The notes below the pieces were generated by a model, which did not search any database, was not told where the DNA came from, and saw nothing but the letters and a program-made list of their open reading frames with translations. Of a stretch of 64,000 nt of DNA, positions 26,337 through 36,190 are shown in pieces. The position numbers were made by a program, and so were the translations under genes. The DNA lies in NCBI GenBank assembly GCA_030649835.1, contig JAUSES010000029.1:4130-68129 (forward strand), read 5' to 3'. Origin of the DNA: a bacterium. GTDB taxonomy: Bacteria; Patescibacteriota; Minisyncoccia; Phycocordibacterales; UBA1550. Numbering within the stretch: position 1 is the first letter of the stretch; each line of letters starts with the position of its first letter.

Positions 26337-26354
26337 GATTTATTTATCTTTAAA

Positions 26355-26372
26355 AAGTTTTCTGTGTGGGAT
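26355..26372. repeat. direct repeat of the 3' end of tRNA-Gly(TCC) (gtgtgggataggggaa vs gtgcgggataggggaa), ~210 bp distal to the tRNA
   Basis: 16/17 nt match with tRNA positions 26565..26580. Confidence 0.55.
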
Positions 26373-26565
26373 AGGGGAACCGGGGTCAAGTTTCTAAGCT
26401 CGTAAACTTGCTAAGAACTTTCTCCCCCGGGAGTCCAAGACACAAATCTGCTGATTCGTCTGCGCCCTTTCGCAAGCTCAAGGTGCCCGCCTCCGCCTTT
26501 CGATTCTCCGTACCCGCTACAAAATGCAACAACGCAGAAACTTTCGTTTCAGCGTTGGCATTTTG

Positions 26566-30349: not shown

Positions 30350-30686
30350 TTGCTACCTCCATTTAAATAATGCACTTCGAAAAAAATAAAAGTTTTATTT
30401 ACACCTACCCTCCCTTACCCTACGCTTGTAGTTGCAAAAGTCAATGTGCCAAAACAGCTTCTTTCTGTGGGTACTGTGGTCACGGATCACTAAGTCTCCT
30501 CATTTGCTCTGCAAATTACGGGGACTAAGTATCCGCTACCCCACCTCGCGGTTTTTGAAAAAATCGGAAAGAAAACTTTTTTTAAAAACATCGCTGCGGT
30601 CGGCACAGCAGTACGGAAGCAAAGCTGTTTGCTTCTTAATTCAAACAGTTACGCAAGCTTATGAGTAACTGTTTGAATTACTGTTG

Positions 30687-30889: not shown

Positions 30890-31963
30890 TTAATTAATCT
30901 CAATATCAATATGTCTCACCGCGGGGATTTCTTTTTTAATTCTTTCTTCTATTTTATCAATACGTTTCCCAATAACCCGTGGCACGCGATCAGTATAGTC
31001 CACGACATACTTGAGAAAATCCTGATAATCCCCTCTTATGGTTTCATAATCTTCCTTAAGCATTCCGCCGTTTGAAAGTTCGCGGAAAAGCGCTGTGCCA
31101 TTCACCTCCACTTCACACTTTGCGCGATATTTCCCAAGCTCTACCACAGATGATTTGAAATCATGTACGCGCTCAATCATGGGGTCCGCAACAAGTATTT
31201 CGATAATTCGCTCCTGCACTTCCTCGGGGATAGACTTTTCCACAAGGAAGCGCTTGTTTTTCATAATCAAAACAACCGCAACCCATGCCAAGAGGACACC
31301 GATGATAATGGAACCACCGGCATCCCACATTGGATTACCCGTAATGTATGAAAGCCAAATAGAAACCATTGCGACAGAAACACCAAAGACTGCGACTCCA
31401 TCTTCATACACCACGGCAAGCACTGTCGGATCACCATCCTGAAATGTCTCCGAAAACGTTGCGTCCTCCCCTCTCGCTTTCCACAACTCACGAAAAGCAA
31501 CAGAGAAAGTAATCATCTCCACCACAAAAGAAACTCCTAATATTATAAATATTTCGGGCTTGAAAAAAATTTCCTCTGGATGAAGCAGTGTGCTGATGCC
31601 GTGATAGACAGTAACTCCAGCACCAACAAAAAATACTCCACAGGCGGAAATTAACGCCCAAAAGAAACGCTCGAGCCCATATCCATATGAAGAATCTTCG
31701 TCGGGTGCGCGGCGACTTTTCACAATTCCCACAAGCAAAAGAGTTTGGTTTGCAGTGTCAGCGAGGCTGTGCACTGCCTCAGAAAAAAGTGAACTTGAAC
31801 CAGAAACAGCAAACCCGATAGCCTTCAAAATAGTAATAACAAAATTACCTAGCAATGCAAATATTACAGAAATAAATCCGTGCTCTTGCATGTAAGGACG
31901 AGCACCTCTATTTAGTTTTTCATTAATATTCATAGTTTTTACCAAAATCTGGTAAAACATCAA
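30890..31963 (-). CDS. cation diffusion facilitator (CDF) family metal efflux transporter
   Basis: Six TM helices plus a C-terminal cytoplasmic domain, with the typical HSLADT motif. The start may be at 31933. Confidence 0.75.
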   Translation of the reverse strand: MMFYQILVKTMNINEKLNRGARPYMQEHGFISVIFALLGNFVITILKAIGFAVSGSSSLFSEAVHSLADTANQTLLLVGIVKSRRAPDEDSSYGYGLERFFWALISACGVFFVGAGVTVYHGISTLLHPEEIFFKPEIFIILGVSFVVEMITFSVAFRELWKARGEDATFSETFQDGDPTVLAVVYEDGVAVFGVSVAMVSIWLSYITGNPMWDAGGSIIIGVLLAWVAVVLIMKNKRFLVEKSIPEEVQERIIEILVADPMIERVHDFKSSVVELGKYRAKCEVEVNGTALFRELSNGGMLKEDYETIRGDYQDFLKYVVDYTDRVPRVIGKRIDKIEERIKKEIPAVRHIDIEIN

Positions 31964-31974
31964 TACAAAATTCT

Positions 31975-32320
31975 AGTCGGGGTGCCGTGCCCAAGGCATG
32001 AATCAGCTGATTCAGAATCGAACTCGGCCTAATCTAAATTTCTTATGGAAATTTCCGCGGAAGTGTTTGGACACTTCCGGTTAAAGCTTTAGTCGGGGTG
32101 CCGAGGAATCCCCGCCTGCCATCGCCTGACTGATCCTTACGAAGCGATTGGCAGTGGCGGGCAGGGAACTCGGCCTATATTCTAGTGAGTGAGCGAAAAG
32201 TAAATACCAATTTACTTTTCCGAGCGAACGACGAATATATTGTACCCAGTTATATCTAAATTTCTAAAGGAAATTTCCGCGAAAGCATCTATATGCTTTC
32301 GGTTAAAGAATGTGTCGGGG
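31975..32320. repeat. two degenerate tRNA-Pro 3'-fragment copies (gtcggggtgccg…aactcggcc), each interrupted by an insertion of ~27 or ~60 nt and followed by a conserved ~60-nt hairpin segment
   Basis: Compared against the intact tRNA at 32315..32385; shared downstream block atctaaatttctNaNggaaatttccgcg…ttNcggttaaag. Confidence 0.55.
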
Positions 32321-32385
32321 TGCCGAGAATCGAACTCGGCCTATCTGCTCCCAAAGCAGACGTACTACCGATATACTACACCCCG
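32315..32385 (-). tRNA. tRNA-Pro (anticodon GGG)
   Basis: C1:G72 and A73 as in bacterial tRNA-Pro, anticodon loop TTGGGAG, T-loop TTCGATT. Confidence 0.75.
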
Positions 32386-32399
32386 ACACATTCTTCAAC

Positions 32400-32495
32400 C
32401 CCACGCAGACGTACTACCGATATACTACACCCCGACTAAAGCTTCAACCCCAAAGCAGACGTACTACCGATATATAACTGCATACAATATATCCT
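32400..32495. repeat. two additional partial copies of the tRNA-Pro 5' half (gcagacgtactaccgatata…) in tandem upstream of the tRNA
   Basis: Period ~45-49 bp with three copies including the tRNA itself. Confidence 0.55.
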
Positions 32496-32647
32496 GCGTT
32501 CGCTCGAAAATACAAACTCCATGTTTGTATTTTACTCACTCACTTGGATATACTACACCCCGTTACACGTGAAACGTAGGAGAATATTAGCACACAAGAG
32601 GCAAATTACGAAATTTGAACACTTGGAACCAGAACATGGGGTAGGTT

Positions 32648-33070
32648 TTACAAAACAAAATTTTCCAAAAACTTTACTTTCGCTGTGCGATTTTTGACAT
32701 CTATCTGCACAGTTATCGCATCAAATACCCACTCAATCTGGTCTTCTGGTCGTCTTTCATACAAATAAACCTGTGTCGTTCGCCTTAAACGCTTTAATTT
32801 ATAAGGGTGCAGATTGTCTTCTGCCCTATATTTATCCGTCCTACTGGAAATACATAGGTCCGACCTATGTGAAGTAGGTATGTTTTCACGTGTAACGCTT
32901 TTTACCTCAATAAAATGCAAAATTTTGCCTTTTTTAGCAATAATATCTATTTCCCCGCATTTTCTGAGAAAATTCTGCTCAATTATTGAAAAACCCTTAT
33001 TTTCTAAGTATTTTTGAGCAATATCCTCTCCTAAACGCCCAATTTTCTGCTTTTCCGTCTTTTCAGCCAT
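32648..33070 (-). CDS. YraN-family (UPF0102) endonuclease
   Basis: GEIDIIAKKGKILHFIEVKS is the YraN signature. Confidence 0.7.
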   Translation of the reverse strand: MAEKTEKQKIGRLGEDIAQKYLENKGFSIIEQNFLRKCGEIDIIAKKGKILHFIEVKSVTRENIPTSHRSDLCISSRTDKYRAEDNLHPYKLKRLRRTTQVYLYERRPEDQIEWVFDAITVQIDVKNRTAKVKFLENFVL

Positions 33071-33453
33071 TAAATATAGTGTAGCATCTTGAGCGTTTCC
33101 CGTGAAGCACGCATTTTACGCTTTTTTGATCCGCCAAGCCCCGTCCTTGGCAAGATTGCCAGGGACGGGGCTTGGCGGATTGCTGGCGTTTCCCGTGAAA
33201 CATCCAATTTTAGGACAATTTTAGAGATCAAAATAGACTATTTCACATGAAACCTATATTTATCAAGGTTTTATGGAAAAATATGGGTATTTTAGCACGT
33301 TTTAGGATCTAAAAAGACCGATTTTAATGTCCTTTATCAACAGTATCCACATGGTTATCCACAGTTTTGGGTCATTTTCCCCATATTTTCCGCCTCAAAC
33401 CGTTGACATGGTGTGTCGGCGTGGTGATTTTGAGAGCAAATGTCCTTTAAAAA

Positions 33454-34191
33454 ATGTGCGAATTTGTATTAAATTGTACTCCTGTGTTATACTTTATACG
33501 TATGCGTACAGACAAAGAGAAGGCGACACAGCTTCGTAGGTTTGGTAAAAGCTATCAGGAAATCGCAGGCGAGCTAGGAATCCCTAAAAGCACTTTATCA
33601 GCGTGGTTTGGCGCCTCTTTGTGGTCACAGAAAATAAAAGATGATCTGAATGTTGTTACACATAGAAAGCACACGATCCGCATAGAAGAGCTCAACAAGG
33701 TGCGTGGGGAACATCTTAGGAATCTTTATATTCAAGCACGACATGAGGCACTTGAGGATTTTGAAATTCTAAAATACCATCCAGCTTTTATTTCAGGTGT
33801 TATGCTCTATTGGGGCGAAGGGGACAAGGCTTCCCTTCACCGCGTATCGCTAACCAACACCGATCCAGCAATGATAAGAATATTCATGGGGTTCCTTAAA
33901 GATGTGTGTGGAGTTGAGGAAAAGAGAATTAAGGCCTGGCTCCTTTTATATCCAGATCTTCAAGAATCTGAGTGCAAAAAATATTGGAAAGAGGAGGCAC
34001 ATTTACAAAATGTAATCTTCAATAAAAGCATGGTAATAGACGGGAGGCATAAAACAAAACGTCTAGGGCATGGTGTTTGCACTGTTGGTGTTTCTAGTAG
34101 ATATTTTAAAGAAAAAATGTTATTGTGGATTTCGTTGTTCCCTGATATGCTTGCAAACAGGGAACTATATGGGAAAGATGCGGATATATGA
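33454..34191 (+). CDS. HTH-domain protein with a possible LAGLIDADG-like nuclease domain
   Basis: N-terminal HTH SYQEIAGELGIPKSTLSAWF. LYWGEGDKAS loosely resembles the LAGLIDGDG motif. The true start may be 33502. Confidence 0.4.
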   Translation: MCEFVLNCTPVLYFIRMRTDKEKATQLRRFGKSYQEIAGELGIPKSTLSAWFGASLWSQKIKDDLNVVTHRKHTIRIEELNKVRGEHLRNLYIQARHEALEDFEILKYHPAFISGVMLYWGEGDKASLHRVSLTNTDPAMIRIFMGFLKDVCGVEEKRIKAWLLLYPDLQESECKKYWKEEAHLQNVIFNKSMVIDGRHKTKRLGHGVCTVGVSSRYFKEKMLLWISLFPDMLANRELYGKDADI

Positions 34192-34256
34192 GTACATATA
34201 TCCGCGACATTCGTGAAAAGTGAATATTATGGGTATACTCACTTTGTCACTCATTT

Positions 34257-34327
34257 GCGGATATAATTTAGTGGTAGAATTCCTCGTTGCCAACGAGAGA
34301 GTGGGAGTTCGATTCTCCCTATCCGCA
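34257..34327 (+). tRNA. tRNA-Gly (anticodon GCC)
   Basis: Acceptor GCGGATA/TATCCGC, anticodon loop TTGCCAA, T-loop TTCGATT; terminator hairpin gccccgaaaggggc+T5 at 34337..34362. Confidence 0.85.
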
Positions 34328-34511
34328 CAATTAAAATTGCCCCGAAAGGGGCTTTTTAATTGTGCGGATAGAGCAAGCCTCCTGCTTGGCTTGCGTGGAG
34401 AATCGAAAGCCGGAATATATTTTTGTAATCAAAAATAATGAGGTGGGGTCGAGGGTACTTAGATTTTTGTGAGTAATGCGATACAAAAAGCTTAGTAACC
34501 CGTGACCGAAA

Positions 34512-34527
34512 GCCCTATCCGCACAAT
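34512..34527. repeat. direct repeat of the tRNA-Gly(GCC) 3' end (ccctatccgcacaat), ~195 bp distal to the tRNA
   Basis: Exact 15-nt repeat of 34318..34332. The intervening segment starts with tgcggatagag (tRNA 5'-like) and contains ggagaatcgaaagccgg, shared with the element next to tRNA-Gly(TCC). Confidence 0.55.
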
Positions 34528-34579
34528 AAATATAAAATAGTCAGCCTCTCTTGAGAGGCTGACTATTTTATATTTATTG

Positions 34580-34651
34580 TGCCCACGCCAGGATTCGAAC
34601 CTGGAATAACGGTTTCGAAGACCGTTGTGATATCCATTTCACTACGAGGGC
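34580..34651 (-). tRNA. tRNA-Arg (anticodon TCG)
   Basis: Acceptor with one T·T mismatch, anticodon loop CTTCGAA, T-loop TTCGAAT. Bidirectional terminator hairpin at 34541..34566. Confidence 0.7.
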
Positions 34652-34720
34652 GTACGAAGACTGTACCGCAAAAGTAGTCAAAAGGCAAAAAAAACGGTAT
34701 GCTTTCAATACTTATTAAAT

Positions 34721-36190
34721 ATGGAAATCAACTATCCAATTCCAAAAGAAGTTTCACGTGTAACAGAAACATTGCGAAACGCAGGTTTTGAGGCGTATTT
34801 GGTGGGTGGATGTGTGCGTGACATATTGCAGGGGATTAAGCCAAAGGATTGGGATGCCACAACAAACGCAACTCCCGAGCAAATCCAGGCACTTTTTGAG
34901 AATTCTTTTTATGAAAATGACTATGGCACAGTTGGAATTGTGAATGAAACAGAGGATGAAACACTGAATGTGGTGGAAGTTACTCCTTACCGCACAGAAG
35001 GTGCCTATACCGACAAACGCCGTCCAGACAGCGTTTCGTTTCACGGGAAACTAGATGATGATCTCACAAGACGGGACTTTACTATCAACGCCATTGCATT
35101 TGATGATTCTAAAGGACATCTAAAGGACATTAGCAACGGACTAAAGGACATTAAGGACAAAGTCTTAAGGACAGTGGGAAACCCTGAGGAACGTTTCAAT
35201 GAAGACGCTCTCCGCGTACTTCGTGCAGTACGTCTTGCCACAGATCTTGGTTTCACGATTGAGTCAGAAACACAAAATGCCATTGTTAAGAAAGCGGGGG
35301 ATTTGAAGCATATTTCTATGGAGCGTATTCGTGATGAATTTTCCAAGATGATTATGACAAAGAATCCTATGGTCGGCATTGTGATATGCCAGAAGCTTGG
35401 GCTACTCAAATACATTGCGCCTGATCTTGAGCGGGGGATTGGGGTAGAACAAAACGGCGACCATATTTACACCGTGTGGGAGCACAACCTTCGCGCCCTT
35501 CAGCATGCAGCCGACCGCGACTGGCCACTTCACGTGCGCCTCGGTGCGCTCTTTCATGATGTTTCAAAACCAGAGACTCGCAGATGGTCAGATGAAAAAA
35601 ATAACTGGACATTTTATGGACACGATGTGGTGGGTGGGCGTGTTACAGAAAAAGCTCTTGAGCGTTTGAAATATCCTAAAAAAATTGTGGAGGTAGTTAC
35701 ACTCCTCGTAAGGCACCATTTGTTTTTCTCCGACATAGAAAAGATTACGCTTTCTGCCGCACGTCGCATTGTAAAAAATGTTGGCCCCGACAACGTATGG
35801 GACTTGATGAAGGTGCGCGCCTGCGACCGTATCGGCATGGGTCGCCCAAAAGAAGCGCCGTATCGTTTGCGTAAGTATGAATCAATGATTGAAGAGGCGA
35901 TGCGCGCTCCGGTATCTGTAGGAATGCTCAAGATTGACGGTGTAAAAATTATGGAAGTTACTCGTGAAACACCTGGACCAAAACTTGGATTCATCCTCCA
36001 CGCACTCCTCGAGGAAGTTCTCGACGACCCAGAGCGCAACACTGAAGAGTACCTCGTGAAACGCACTCTCGACCTCGCAAAGCTCCCCATTGATGAACTA
36101 AAAAAACTCGGCGAAGAAGGGAAGGGGAAAAAGGATGAGGCCGAACAAGGAGAACTCGCGGTAATCCGAAAGCGACACGGGGTAAATTAA
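34721..36190 (+). CDS. cca: CCA-adding tRNA nucleotidyltransferase with HD domain
   Basis: Pol-beta nucleotidyltransferase motif (GGCVRD…WDATT), RRDFTINAIA, and HD motif (HNLRALQH…LFHDVSKP). Confidence 0.8.
   Translation: MEINYPIPKEVSRVTETLRNAGFEAYLVGGCVRDILQGIKPKDWDATTNATPEQIQALFENSFYENDYGTVGIVNETEDETLNVVEVTPYRTEGAYTDKRRPDSVSFHGKLDDDLTRRDFTINAIAFDDSKGHLKDISNGLKDIKDKVLRTVGNPEERFNEDALRVLRAVRLATDLGFTIESETQNAIVKKAGDLKHISMERIRDEFSKMIMTKNPMVGIVICQKLGLLKYIAPDLERGIGVEQNGDHIYTVWEHNLRALQHAADRDWPLHVRLGALFHDVSKPETRRWSDEKNNWTFYGHDVVGGRVTEKALERLKYPKKIVEVVTLLVRHHLFFSDIEKITLSAARRIVKNVGPDNVWDLMKVRACDRIGMGRPKEAPYRLRKYESMIEEAMRAPVSVGMLKIDGVKIMEVTRETPGPKLGFILHALLEEVLDDPERNTEEYLVKRTLDLAKLPIDELKKLGEEGKGKKDEAEQGELAVIRKRHGVN

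What the first reader, a model, noticed from the sequence alone, without database searches (positions are those of the whole stretch)
31975..32500. tRNA-Pro(GGG) locus with multiple tRNA-fragment copies: two 3'-fragment copies split by 27- and 60-nt insertions, and two tandem 5'-half copies
Downstream of the intact tRNA are two units that each begin gtcggggtgccg…aactcggcc (acceptor and T-arm) but carry an insertion within the T-arm region, followed by a conserved hairpin block. Upstream are two extra 45-49-bp copies of the D-arm/anticodon half. This looks like the scar of repeated site-specific recombination at tRNA-Pro (serial integration and excision). A YraN nuclease, an HTH/LAGLIDADG-like gene, a XerC/D recombinase and two more tRNAs are nearby. 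It is not a CRISPR array.
Basis: seen in the sequence. Interest (0 to 1): 0.55.

Follow-up and report, generated by a model that had tools for sequence, protein, structure and literature searches.

The report
Russian-doll nest of tRNA-Pro genes
One working proline tRNA gene sits inside the broken halves of two older copies of itself, which shows that in this small-genome (Patescibacteria) bacterium a complete tRNA with its own processing stem was inserted more than once into the anticodon loop of the resident gene; this is an unusual gene architecture, most likely a by-product of recombination and not a new molecular machine.

Summary
The intact gene is tRNA-Pro(TGG), not GGG, on the minus strand (32314-32385). 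The outer 5' half is itself split by a 73-nt element, so the locus spans 31961-32612. A second, inverted copy of that element lies at 32180-32252.

The fragments are nested. In tRNA sense the order is 5'half-a, 5'half-b, intact tRNA, 3'frag-b, 3'frag-a. Each inserted unit is a cassette: 14-nt leader, complete tRNA, complementary trailer, and two hairpins. It sits between canonical positions 37 and 41 of the previous copy. The leader and trailer extend the acceptor stem by 15 bp (97% paired in 14 loci; 21 G-U against 3 A-C; strong covariation).

Eleven related Yonathbacteria-like loci from independent assemblies show zero, one or two nest levels with the same junctions, all behind one conserved promoter-like block.

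No integrase, cargo or duplicated core is present. The best explanation is out-of-register homologous recombination, in which the flanking tRNA halves act as arms and copy a diverged, probably imported, cassette into the intact gene. The 26- and 55-nt inserts and the 73-nt element are small hairpin elements sitting in the dead fragments.

It is a new variant of tRNA-gene recombination scars, of moderate interest.

The parts
32584..32612 (-). Promoter-like block (TTCGTA, 17 nt, TGC-TAATAT) upstream of the whole array
   Evidence: The block TTCGCA-17-TGcTATGAT is conserved in nested and simple relatives. The consensus scan did not flag it, so promoter function is inferred from conservation.
32562..32575 (.). 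Palindrome GTTACACGTGAAAC (on the tRNA-sense minus strand it reads GTTTCACGTGTAAC) directly before the outermost 5' half
   Evidence: 8 near-matches, all within 32562-35970, against 0.25 expected. Relatives have GTTTC...GAAAC at the same place.
32547..32562 (-). Outer 5' half (H5a), part 1: tRNA positions 1-16
   Evidence: 16/16 identical to the intact tRNA.
32475..32547 (-). E1: 73-nt structured element inserted in the D loop of H5a, at TATAT
   Evidence: nhmmer family hit, E 5e-17. Consensus fold has 8 covarying pairs. The same insertion is present in L005, L006, L037 and L038.
32449..32474 (-). Outer 5' half (H5a), part 2: tRNA positions 11-36, ending in TTTGGG
   Evidence: 26/26 identical.
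32435..32448 (-). Leader s5B (GTTGAAGCTTTAGT) of cassette B, complementary to s3B
   Evidence: Inverted repeat I3, 22 nt, 95% complementary. It is the same type as the functional cassette of L004 and L037.
32400..32434 (-). Inner 5' half (H5b): tRNA 1-30 plus the loop GTGGGG (canonical positions 1-37)
   Evidence: 34/36 identical. The GTGGGG junction is shared by L004, L005, L008, L012, L026, L029, L034 and L038.
32386..32399 (-). Leader s5C (GTTGAAGAATGTGT) of the innermost cassette C
   Evidence: Pairs with s3C over 15 bp, including G36-G37 of H5b (I2, 40, 51).
32314..32385 (-). Intact tRNA-Pro(TGG), with no encoded CCA
   Evidence: ARAGORN; Rfam tRNA 61.9 bits. It is identical in most relatives.
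32301..32314 (-). Trailer s3C (CACATTCTTTAACC)
32258..32300 (-). Hairpins hp1C (32281-32300) and hp2C (32258-32276) of cassette C
   Evidence: Covariation: hp1 has 5 pairs changed on both sides, hp2 has 1.
32180..32252 (+). E2: second copy of the E element, in the opposite orientation, between hp2C and 3' fragment b
   Evidence: nhmmer E 2e-18. Found at the same place in L005, L006 and L029.
32166..32178 (-). 3' fragment b (T3b), part 1: tRNA positions 42-54
   Evidence: 13/13 identical.
32111..32165 (-).
   Evidence: The same stem at the same site is found in L006 (longer version) and L038 (two copies). In L038 one copy encloses a complete tRNA-Arg(CCG).
32092..32110 (-). T3b, part 2: tRNA positions 55-72 (with one extra C)
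32036..32091 (-). Trailer s3B (32079-32091), hp1B (32059-32078) and hp2B (32036-32054) of cassette B
   Evidence: Direct repeat D2. The sequence is 95-96% identical to the L004 and L037 cassettes.
32014..32035 (-). 3' fragment a (T3a), part 1: tRNA positions 40-60
   Evidence: 21/21 identical, plus one extra T.
31988..32013 (-). 26-nt insert made of two mini-hairpins: hpA GAATCAGCTGATTC and hpB TGCCTTGGGCA
   Evidence: An orthologous insert lies at the same T-stem site in L037, L029 and L003. hpA-like modules are over-represented in the window.
31976..31987 (-). T3a, part 2: tRNA positions 61-72
   Evidence: 12/12 identical.
31961..31975 (-). Outermost trailer TAGAATTTTGTATTG, a relic of the ancestral trailer AAGGATTTTGAC; the cation-efflux gene starts just beyond it
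   Evidence: Compared with the simple loci L007 and L009-L011.

Best explanation
The locus holds one functional tRNA-Pro(UGG) gene nested inside the remains of two earlier copies of the same gene.

The repeated unit is a cassette: a 14-nt leader, a complete tRNA, a complementary trailer and two hairpins. In the RNA, leader and trailer extend the acceptor stem into a continuous helix of about 22 bp. This is probably a processing stalk for a double-strand-specific RNase. RNase P, 3' trimming and the CCA-adding enzyme encoded at 34721-36190 would then act on the product.

A cassette lies between canonical positions 37 and 41 of the resident gene. It splits that gene into a dead 5' half upstream and a dead 3' fragment downstream. 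Because the inserted cassette again contains an intact tRNA-Pro, the event can repeat, which gives the Russian-doll order. Once one nest exists, its flanking 5' half (36 nt) and 3' fragment (33 nt) serve as homology arms. Out-of-register homologous recombination or gene conversion against any intact tRNA-Pro gene then copies the cassette into the anticodon loop with identical junctions. That target can be a sister copy or DNA taken up from a related lineage.

In the window, the outer cassette B is the type that is still functional in L004 and L037. The inner cassette C is a diverged allele that most likely came from another lineage. Everything is transcribed from one conserved promoter upstream of the outermost fragment. 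The dead fragments later collected small hairpin elements: E1 and E2, the T-loop hairpin, and hpA/hpB.

Shown: the nested anatomy, the stalk and hairpin covariation, recurrence across lineages, and the absence of integrase, cargo and core. Inferred: the recombination mechanism, the import of cassette C, and the RNase III-type processing. Unknown: how the very first insertion arose.
For: Anatomy and exact fragment matches.

Matched pairs in nested order: s5C with s3C and s5B with s3B (I2 and I3). The two cassettes differ at 4 stalk pairs and 3 hp1 pairs, and every difference is compensated.

The stalk is an RNA-level helix on the tRNA-sense strand. Over 14 distinct loci and 15 positions there are 182 Watson-Crick pairs, 21 G-U, 3 A-C and 4 other. 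On 9 cassettes, 99.3% of cells are paired and 16 pairs change on both sides (stalk 10, hp1 5, hp2 1). No shuffle out of 500 reaches the observed value, and sliding the partners drops pairing to 31-48%.

Relatives, all in the same synteny (YraN, then tRNA-Pro; the cation-efflux gene follows in most, but is absent in L026, L034 and L038):
- Simple state, with only the ancestral stalk: L007, L009, L010, L011.
- One nest: L004, L008, L029, L034, L037, L006.
- Two levels: the window, L005, L026, L038.
- 3' fragment only: L003. 5' half only: L012.

The junctions are the same everywhere. The 5' half ends at canonical position 37 (38 in L006 and L038), and the 3' fragment starts at canonical 41.

The outermost 5' halves are the most decayed: L004 30/36, L005 25/32, L038 29/36. 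This fits an order of outer = older.

L037 equals the window minus cassette C.

Cassette type conflicts with genome relatedness. Window cassette B is 96% identical to L004 and 95% to L037, although YraN is 56-59% and the efflux protein 75% identical. The closest genome, L003 (82%), carries a cassette that is only 71-74% identical.

Ectopic recombination through short shared tRNA segments occurs in these genomes: L026 has a Pro/Gly chimera at the T-loop sequence TTCGATTCTC.

One promoter-like block lies upstream of the outermost element in both simple and nested loci.

The whole-locus RNA folds at -270 kcal/mol, z = -16.8.
Against: The first insertion is unexplained. No transposase, integrase, target duplication or other mobile signature was found for the cassette.

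The homology arms are short (about 33-36 nt).

No donor carrying cassette C alone was found, so import is inferred only from the compensated differences and the discordance with genome relatedness.

In L026 the trailer of the 3' fragment does not match the leader of its expected 5' partner. L003 and L012 have fragments on one side only. So unequal exchange or deletion within each side also occurs.

The tRNA-derived parts of old fragments show no substitutions across the window, L037, L029 and L003, while the modules inserted in them differ at 4-5 of 26 nt. Pure neutral decay does not predict this. It hints at gene conversion or at some function of the outer shells.

The efflux-protein tree is nearly star-like, so patchy distribution is weak evidence on gain versus loss.
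Confidence: 0.55

Rival explanations
1. Serial site-specific integration and excision. Integrative elements with attP sites inside tRNA-Pro integrated repeatedly. Each one supplied a replacement tRNA part and displaced the old part. The elements were later lost, leaving only the att scars.
For: Direct repeats of a tRNA 3' part downstream of an intact tRNA are the classical integration signature (own knowledge; tRNA fragments arising from integrated elements are reviewed in PMC9897764). T-loop insertions in these genomes do look like this: in L026 a unit carrying the tRNA-Gly 3' end sits in the T loop of the tRNA-Pro fragment, with CGATTCT at both junctions. A tyrosine-recombinase gene is present in the window.
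Against: No shared core exists at the anticodon-loop junctions, and 3 nt are lost. Nothing lies between a 5' half and the next leader. The units of 49 and about 116 nt carry no ORF. Fragments on the 5' and 3' sides come in matched, covarying leader and trailer pairs, so they entered as one complete cassette. The recombinase is 9 kb away in conserved housekeeping synteny. Neither the hp2 motif nor the 5'-half junction motif has any hit in 2.9 million viral contigs. All real hp2 hits in the metagenome scan are tRNA-Pro loci of this type; YraN lies upstream wherever the upstream sequence was examined.
Confidence: 0.13
2. Two independent tandem arrays. The 49-nt unit (leader plus tRNA 1-37) and the roughly 116-nt unit (tRNA 41-73 plus trailer plus hairpins) each expanded by slippage or unequal crossing-over. 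The leader and trailer matches were kept or restored by compensatory evolution.
For: The 5' side has a regular period of 49-50 nt (D1). L003 has only a 3' fragment and L012 only a 5' half. In L026 the extra 3' unit carries a trailer of the same type as the inner one and does not match its expected 5' partner.
Against: This cannot create the first half-gene junctions. It would give identical stalks at successive levels, whereas cassettes B and C differ by 7 fully compensated pairs and B remains 95-96% identical to the L004 and L037 cassettes. Nested matching of leaders and trailers in the window, L038 and L005 would require selection on stalks that flank dead fragments.
Confidence: 0.15
3. The outer shells are functional RNA. 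One form of this idea is a tRNA-like processing scaffold for the inner pre-tRNA. Another is a tRNA-Pro(GGG) with hp2 as a long variable arm, whose intron at position 37/38 is the inner tRNA cassette.
For: When leader, tRNA, trailer and hp1 are removed in silico from L008 or L004, ARAGORN calls the shell a 93-95-nt tRNA-Pro(GGG). The loop is GTGGGGT and the anticodon stem is TCTGC paired with the invariant linker G(C/T)GGA. tRNA-derived parts of old fragments are perfectly conserved while their inserts diverge. Most insertions lie in loops. The 5' junction is the canonical intron and split-tRNA position.
Against: I designed the construct myself, and a 5-nt wobble-tolerant match is expected about 0.4 times per unit by chance. 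The window's own shells are not called. They carry insertions in the D loop, T loop and T stem, and have lost the outer leader. Many outer 5' halves are decayed. Bacteria have no known protein-based tRNA splicing, and excision by RNase P and RNase Z would leave unligated halves (own knowledge). No group I intron or other Rfam family matches.
Confidence: 0.07
4. Assembly artefact: a collapse or chimera of tandem tRNA genes or of strain variants.
For: The repeats are longer than common k-mers, and the Logan contigs break inside them.
Against: Both flanks are reproduced base for base by an independent assembler. The only path that uses all the junctions is the nested one. The same architecture, with lineage-specific differences, occurs in at least 11 distinct loci from different studies.
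Confidence: 0.02

Closest known systems
Partial tRNA gene copies left by integrative elements (attL/attR scars of tyrosine-integrase elements in bacteria and archaea)
   Same: Exact partial copies of a tRNA lie next to an intact copy of the same tRNA. The functional gene is preserved because the incoming DNA supplies a replacement.
   Different: Here the incoming unit is a complete tRNA with its own leader and trailer stalk. There is no integrase or cargo and no duplicated core. 3 nt are deleted. Fragments lie on both sides in nested order. The unit is 190 nt or less.
Split, permuted and intron-containing tRNA genes of Archaea (Nanoarchaeum split tRNAs, Caldivirga tri-split tRNAs; PMC3218864, PMC4390854)
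   Same: The break is at canonical position 37/38. Complementary sequences flank the pieces. Several 5' halves lie next to 3' parts.
   Different: This is a bacterial genome. The pieces cannot rebuild a tRNA because positions 38-40 are missing. The complementary sequences extend the acceptor stem of the inner gene and do not pair the two halves at the break. The outer pieces decay and collect insertions.
Group I introns in tRNA anticodon loops, including those of Patescibacteria (PMC13011429)
   Same: The same phylum, the same target (the tRNA anticodon loop), and spread by homology-dependent copying into an uninterrupted allele.
   Different: There is no ribozyme (no Rfam hit). The gene is rescued by a replacement tRNA carried in the insert and not by splicing, so the target site is regenerated and nesting can repeat.
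Leader-trailer processing stalks of rRNA operons (RNase III substrates)
   Same: The 5' and 3' flanks pair into a long helix that encloses the mature RNA, with covariation and G-U pairs.
   Different: Here it is applied to a single tRNA. The helix is continuous with the acceptor stem. Cleavage has not been tested.
Small palindromic insertion elements (MITEs, REPs, Rickettsia palindromic elements)
   Same: E1 and E2, hpA and hpB, and the T-loop hairpin are short, hairpin-forming, ORF-less repeats. They are found at several sites, including inside coding regions of relatives.
   Different: E has no terminal inverted repeats. The modules are only 12-15 nt long. No cognate transposase was identified.

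Membership tests
Integrase-type tRNA integration scar (attL/attR) | Direct repeat of part of the tRNA flanking the inserted DNA | tested here: met
   3' fragments at 31976-32035 and 32092-32178 repeat tRNA positions 40-72.
Integrase-type tRNA integration scar (attL/attR) | Identical core (crossover) sequence at both junctions, with no loss of target bases | tested here: not met
   The 5' half ends at canonical position 37 and the 3' fragment starts at 41, so positions 38-40 are absent and no core is shared.
Integrase-type tRNA integration scar (attL/attR) | Integrase gene and cargo, or their remnants, between the repeats | tested here: not met
   The units are 49 nt and about 116-222 nt long and hold only hairpins. 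The nearest recombinase is 9 kb away in housekeeping synteny.
Integrase-type tRNA integration scar (attL/attR) | The element occurs free or at other sites (phage, plasmid or island) | tested here: not met
   0 hits in viral contigs. All real metagenome hits are tRNA-Pro loci of this type; YraN lies upstream wherever the upstream sequence was examined.
Split or intron-containing tRNA gene | Interruption at canonical position 37/38 | tested here: met
   The 5' halves end at G37 in most loci and at A38 in L006 and L038.
Split or intron-containing tRNA gene | The exons together encode a complete tRNA | tested here: not met
   Positions 38-40 are missing, and ARAGORN finds no gene in 5' half plus 3' fragment. 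A gene is called only with an ad hoc join that uses the hp1-hp2 linker in L008 and L004, and not in the window.
Split or intron-containing tRNA gene | Bulge-helix-bulge motif and a splicing endonuclease or ligase | not tested
   No formal search for a BHB motif was made. The enzyme repertoire of the genome cannot be read from one 64-kb window.
Group I intron in a tRNA gene | Group I ribozyme core | tested here: not met
   No Rfam intron family matches at the gathering threshold or at E up to 10.
CRISPR array | Identical short repeats separated by unique spacers of similar length | tested here: not met
   The repeats are tRNA parts of different extent on the two sides of an intact tRNA, and there is no spacer pattern.
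Leader-trailer processing stalk (RNase III-type substrate) | The 5' and 3' flanks form a conserved helix supported by covariation on the RNA strand | tested here: met
   15 bp, 97% paired, 21 G-U against 3 A-C. 10 stalk pairs change on both sides.
Leader-trailer processing stalk (RNase III-type substrate) | Cleavage by RNase III in the helix | not testable with these tools
   This needs transcript-end mapping or an in vitro assay.

The most novel reading that the evidence does not exclude
The cassette is a new kind of non-autonomous selfish element, a 'replacement-tRNA homing cassette'. It spreads between Patescibacteria by carrying tRNA-half homology arms plus a working substitute tRNA with its own processing stalk. 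It can therefore knock out an essential single-copy tRNA gene without cost. Because it regenerates its own target, it stacks into Russian dolls. Spread may be stimulated by a double-strand break in the anticodon-loop DNA, made by a nuclease such as the widespread HTH plus LAGLIDADG-like family encoded about 1.1 kb away. A rarer alternative is that the outer shells are functional tRNA-like RNAs hosting a tRNA in an intron-like position at 37/38.
Probability: 0.2. Interest if true: 0.8.

Novelty: new variant of a known kind. Interest (0 to 1): 0.55.

Why it matters
Partial tRNA genes are normally read as footprints of integrases. Here a whole tRNA with its processing stem was inserted repeatedly at the canonical 37/38 position, in a bacterium, with no integrase, ribozyme or splicing machinery.

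If the homology-arm model is right, it gives a simple DNA-level route by which an essential tRNA gene can be interrupted, replaced and exchanged between lineages. It also gives a bacterial case to compare in the old debate on how split and intron-bearing tRNA genes arise at position 37/38.

Practically, it warns annotators of candidate-phyla genomes that tRNA-Pro loci can hold several pseudo-halves and that assemblies break there.

It also points to several uncharacterised small structured elements around tRNA genes in this phylum: the E element, the 'X' element after the Gly and Arg tRNAs, and the mini-hairpin modules.

Tried and rejected
- Rfam at the gathering threshold and at permissive E-values: only the five tRNAs. 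No intron, ribozyme or sRNA family fits the cassette, E, the T-loop hairpin or the X element.
- Viral contig scans with the hp2 motif and with the 5'-half junction motif: 0 hits.
- The 60-nt hairpin and the E motif do not recur elsewhere in the window.
- The terminator scan found nothing in the locus. The promoter scan found only weak sites.
- The Xer-like recombinase was rejected as element-borne.
- I considered a three-gene tandem array with two deletions. I rejected it because outer leaders and trailers pair with each other and differ from the inner pair.
- I considered E1 and E2 as terminal inverted repeats of one insertion. I rejected this because their span crosses the s5B/s3B pair, and because relatives carry E1 alone (L037, L038) or E2 alone (L029).
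- Literature searches found no description of nested tRNA genes in Patescibacteria.
Full report
CHECK OF THE OBSERVATION

The window holds five tRNA genes. The one in the finding is tRNA-Pro with anticodon TGG, not GGG, on the minus strand at 32314-32385 (ARAGORN; Rfam tRNA 61.9 bits).

blastn-short with each tRNA against the window shows that only tRNA-Pro has partial copies around it:
- positions 1-30 at 32434-32405 (E 3e-12)
- positions 11-36 at 32474-32449
- positions 1-16 at 32562-32547
- positions 43-60 at 32031-32014
- positions 59-72 at 32105-32092
- positions 42-54 at 32178-32166
- positions 61-72 at 31987-31976

The repeat finder gives a 49-50-nt period for the 5' halves and a 74-nt block, 80% identical, after each tRNA 3' end.

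- The outer 5' half is itself split by a 73-nt element (E1), and its first 16 nt lie at 32547-32562.
- A second, inverted copy of that element (E2) lies at 32180-32252.
- The whole arrangement is nested.

Two contigs from an independent assembler (Logan, run SRR13727527) match both sides of the locus base for base and stop only at the 31-mer repeat.

ANATOMY (tRNA sense = minus strand; coordinates)

Reading 5' to 3':
1. Promoter-like block, 32612-32584
2. Palindrome GTTTCACGTGTAAC
3. 5' half a, part 1 (tRNA 1-16)
4. E1
5. 5' half a, part 2 (tRNA 11-36)
6. Leader s5B, GTTGAAGCTTTAGT
7. 5' half b (tRNA 1-30 plus loop GTGGGG)
8. Leader s5C, GTTGAAGAATGTGT
9. Intact tRNA
10. Trailer s3C, CACATTCTTTAACC
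11. hp1C, then hp2C
12. E2 (reverse orientation)
13. 3' fragment b, with a hairpin of about 55 nt in its T loop
14. Trailer s3B, TAAAGCTTTAACC
15. hp1B, then hp2B
16. 3' fragment a, with a 26-nt double mini-hairpin in its T stem
17. Relic of the ancestral trailer
18. Start of a cation-efflux gene

s5C pairs with s3C and s5B pairs with s3B (I2 and I3). The fragments therefore form shells around the intact gene.

In canonical numbering, each 5' half ends at position 37 and each 3' fragment begins at 41. Positions 38-40 are lost.

RELATIVES

The neighbouring cation-efflux protein retrieves Candidatus Yonathbacteria, Nomurabacteria and Paceibacterota MAGs at 75-82% identity. They share the synteny tRNA-Arg, tRNA-Gly, YraN, tRNA-Pro, efflux gene, tRNA-Arg. 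A metagenome scan with the hp2 motif added more loci. Every real hit is a tRNA-Pro locus of this type, and YraN lies upstream wherever the upstream sequence was examined.

The loci fall into a series:
- No fragments, only a 14-bp ancestral stalk (GTCGAAATTCTT / AAGGATTTTGAC): L007, L009, L010, L011.
- One nest: L004, L008, L029, L034, L037, L006.
- Two levels: the window, L005, L026, L038.
- 3' fragment only: L003.
- 5' half only: L012.

The junctions are the same everywhere. L037 is essentially the window without cassette C. The outermost 5' halves are the most decayed (L004 30/36, L005 25/32, L038 29/36), so outer means older.

A conserved block, TTCGCA-17 nt-TGcTATGAT, lies upstream of the outermost element in both simple and nested loci. 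Nothing resembling a promoter fits in the 14 nt before an inner tRNA. I therefore infer that the whole array is one transcription unit.

THE CASSETTE IS A STRUCTURED RNA UNIT

Over 14 distinct loci, the 15 positions on either side of the tRNA form 182 Watson-Crick pairs, 21 G-U, 3 A-C and 4 other. The excess of G-U over A-C places the helix on the tRNA-sense RNA.

On nine aligned cassettes, 99.3% of cells are paired and 16 pairs change on both sides (stalk 10, hp1 5, hp2 1). No shuffle out of 500 reaches these values, and slid partners drop to 31-48% paired.

The stalk is continuous with the acceptor stem, giving about 22 bp. The tRNAs lack an encoded CCA, and a CCA-adding enzyme gene lies at 34721-36190 (Pfam annotation). 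I infer, but cannot test, that a double-strand-specific RNase opens the stalk before RNase P, 3' trimming and CCA addition.

The whole 641-nt transcript folds at -270 kcal/mol, z = -16.8.

MECHANISM

Integrase-type integration does not fit:
- The junctions share no core, and three bases are missing.
- There is no cargo or ORF in the units.
- The hp2 motif and the half-gene junction have no hits in viral contigs.
- The only recombinase in the window is 9 kb away, beside exonuclease III. The same arrangement is seen in the distant L034, so it looks like a housekeeping Xer gene.

Because the leader and trailer of each shell match each other and differ from those of the next shell, each shell must have entered as a complete cassette that split its predecessor.

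Once one nest exists, the 36-nt 5' half and the 33-nt 3' fragment that flank a cassette are homology arms for any intact tRNA-Pro gene. Out-of-register recombination or gene conversion would copy the cassette into the anticodon loop and reproduce the same junctions at every level. The inserted intact tRNA regenerates the target.

The window's two cassettes differ by seven fully compensated base pairs. Meanwhile cassette B is 95-96% identical to the still-functional cassettes of L004 and L037, whose proteins are only 56-75% identical to the window's. The closest genome, L003, has a cassette that is 71-74% identical. This points to import of a diverged allele and not to in-situ duplication.

Short-homology ectopic exchange does occur in these genomes. 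In L026 a unit that normally follows tRNA-Gly(TCC) sits, with the tRNA-Gly 3' end attached, inside the T loop of the tRNA-Pro fragment. It is joined at the shared T-loop sequence TTCGATTCTC.

Unequal exchange within each side also occurs: L026 has a mismatched trailer, and L003 and L012 are one-sided. How the very first cassette entered an anticodon loop remains unknown.

THE INSERTIONS IN THE DEAD FRAGMENTS

E (73 nt; TATAT | TCAAGYGAGTGAGCGAAAT - variable hairpin - ATTTCCGAGCGAGCGCAGAATATATTGTAYYCAGTTA | TATAT) is a dispersed family. It has copies away from tRNA-Pro in L004, L007 and L037, and its consensus fold has 8 covarying pairs. It has no terminal inverted repeats and no Rfam match.

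The T-loop hairpin recurs at the same site in L006 and L038. In L038 one copy encloses a complete tRNA-Arg(CCG).

The 26-nt insert consists of two mini-hairpins. Relatives of these modules occur elsewhere in the window and, in relatives, inside the YraN and efflux coding regions.

WHAT DOES NOT FIT NEATLY

The tRNA-derived parts of the old fragments show no substitutions across the window, L037, L029 and L003, although the modules inserted in them differ at 4-5 of 26 nt. Gene conversion on such short tracts, or some function of the shells, would be needed to explain this.

When leader, tRNA, trailer and hp1 are removed in silico from L008 or L004, ARAGORN calls the shell a tRNA-Pro(GGG) with hp2 as a long variable arm. 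I designed that construct myself. The required 5-nt pairing is expected about 0.4 times per unit by chance. The window's own shells are not called. I rate this reading as unlikely but not excluded.

SURROUNDINGS

The ORF at 33454-34191 belongs to a family widespread in Patescibacteria. A second family member (51% identical; locus tag Q7K40_02760) has the same locus-tag prefix as the window's copy (Q7K40_01565) and so is probably a paralogue in the same MAG.

The ORF is found next to some nested loci only, so no link to the nest is shown.

COMPARISON AND VERDICT

The nearest known things are:
- integration scars at tRNA genes
- archaeal split and intron-bearing tRNA genes
- group I introns in patescibacterial tRNA genes (PMC13011429)
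- rRNA-type processing stalks

The locus shares features with each of the first three (integration scars, split/intron-bearing tRNA genes, group I introns) but fails a defining test of each (see the membership table); for the processing stalk the covariation test is met and cleavage could not be tested. Literature searches found no description of nested tRNA genes.

I classify it as a new variant of a known kind (recombination remnants at a tRNA gene), of moderate interest. There is a minority chance that it is a self-propagating replacement-tRNA cassette.

Noticed in passing
window 34329-34525 (after tRNA-Gly gcc), about 26340-26560 (minus strand, after tRNA-Gly tcc), about 30450-30680 (minus strand, after tRNA-Arg ccg); also L004, L006, L007, L008, L010, L011, L026: A conserved element of about 170 nt ('X') follows Gly and Arg tRNA genes. 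Its motifs are GGAGAATCGAAAGGCGGAG, GGGGTCGAGAGTACTTAG and CTTAGTAACTCGTGACCGA. The order is: tRNA, a perfect hairpin, an inverted copy of that tRNA's own positions of about 52-72, X, then a direct copy of its last 12-19 nt. It has no Rfam match.
   Followed up: partly
window 32475-32547 (minus strand) and 32180-32252 (plus strand); L004 3664-3744, L007 1730-1810, L037 965-1046: The E element is a 73-nt dispersed structured repeat with conserved arms and a hypervariable, covarying central hairpin. It is inserted at TATAT and has no terminal inverted repeats.
   Followed up: partly
window 26444, 32000, 42413, 57719, 60284; relatives L003, L006-L011, L037: Mini-hairpin modules (GAATYAGCNNATTC and TGYCTTGGRCA-like) are over-represented: 9 strand matches against 1.8 expected. 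In relatives they sit between GTTTC and GAAAC half-sites, inside the YraN coding region and in the 5' part of the efflux gene. This is reminiscent of Rickettsia palindromic elements.
   Followed up: partly
window 32562-35970: Eight near-copies of the palindrome GTTTCACGTGAAAC, all within 3.4 kb (0.25 expected). Three lie in the divergent region between YraN and the HTH/LAGLIDADG-like ORF, and one lies between the tRNA-Pro promoter-like block and the first tRNA fragment. They may be operator sites.
   Followed up: no
[not shown]
   Followed up: yes
L038 (minus strand) 1603-1810: The T-loop hairpin of the outermost tRNA-Pro 3' fragment encloses a complete tRNA-Arg(CCG). The efflux gene present in other genomes between tRNA-Pro and tRNA-Arg is absent there.
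   Followed up: partly
window 34200-34360; loci L003-L012: tRNA-Gly(gcc) has opposite orientation in different relatives. In the window it is flanked by inverted copies of its own 5' end (TATATCCGC, upstream) and of its 3' end (GTGCGGATAGAG, downstream). This suggests inversion through tRNA-derived inverted repeats.
   Followed up: no
window 32648-33070 (minus strand, YraN/UPF0102) and its orthologues: The YraN coding region has a variable in-frame stretch after the VTREN/VSREN motif. In the window it contains the hairpin CATAGGTCGGACCTATG, and in relatives one to several mini-hairpin modules.
   Followed up: no
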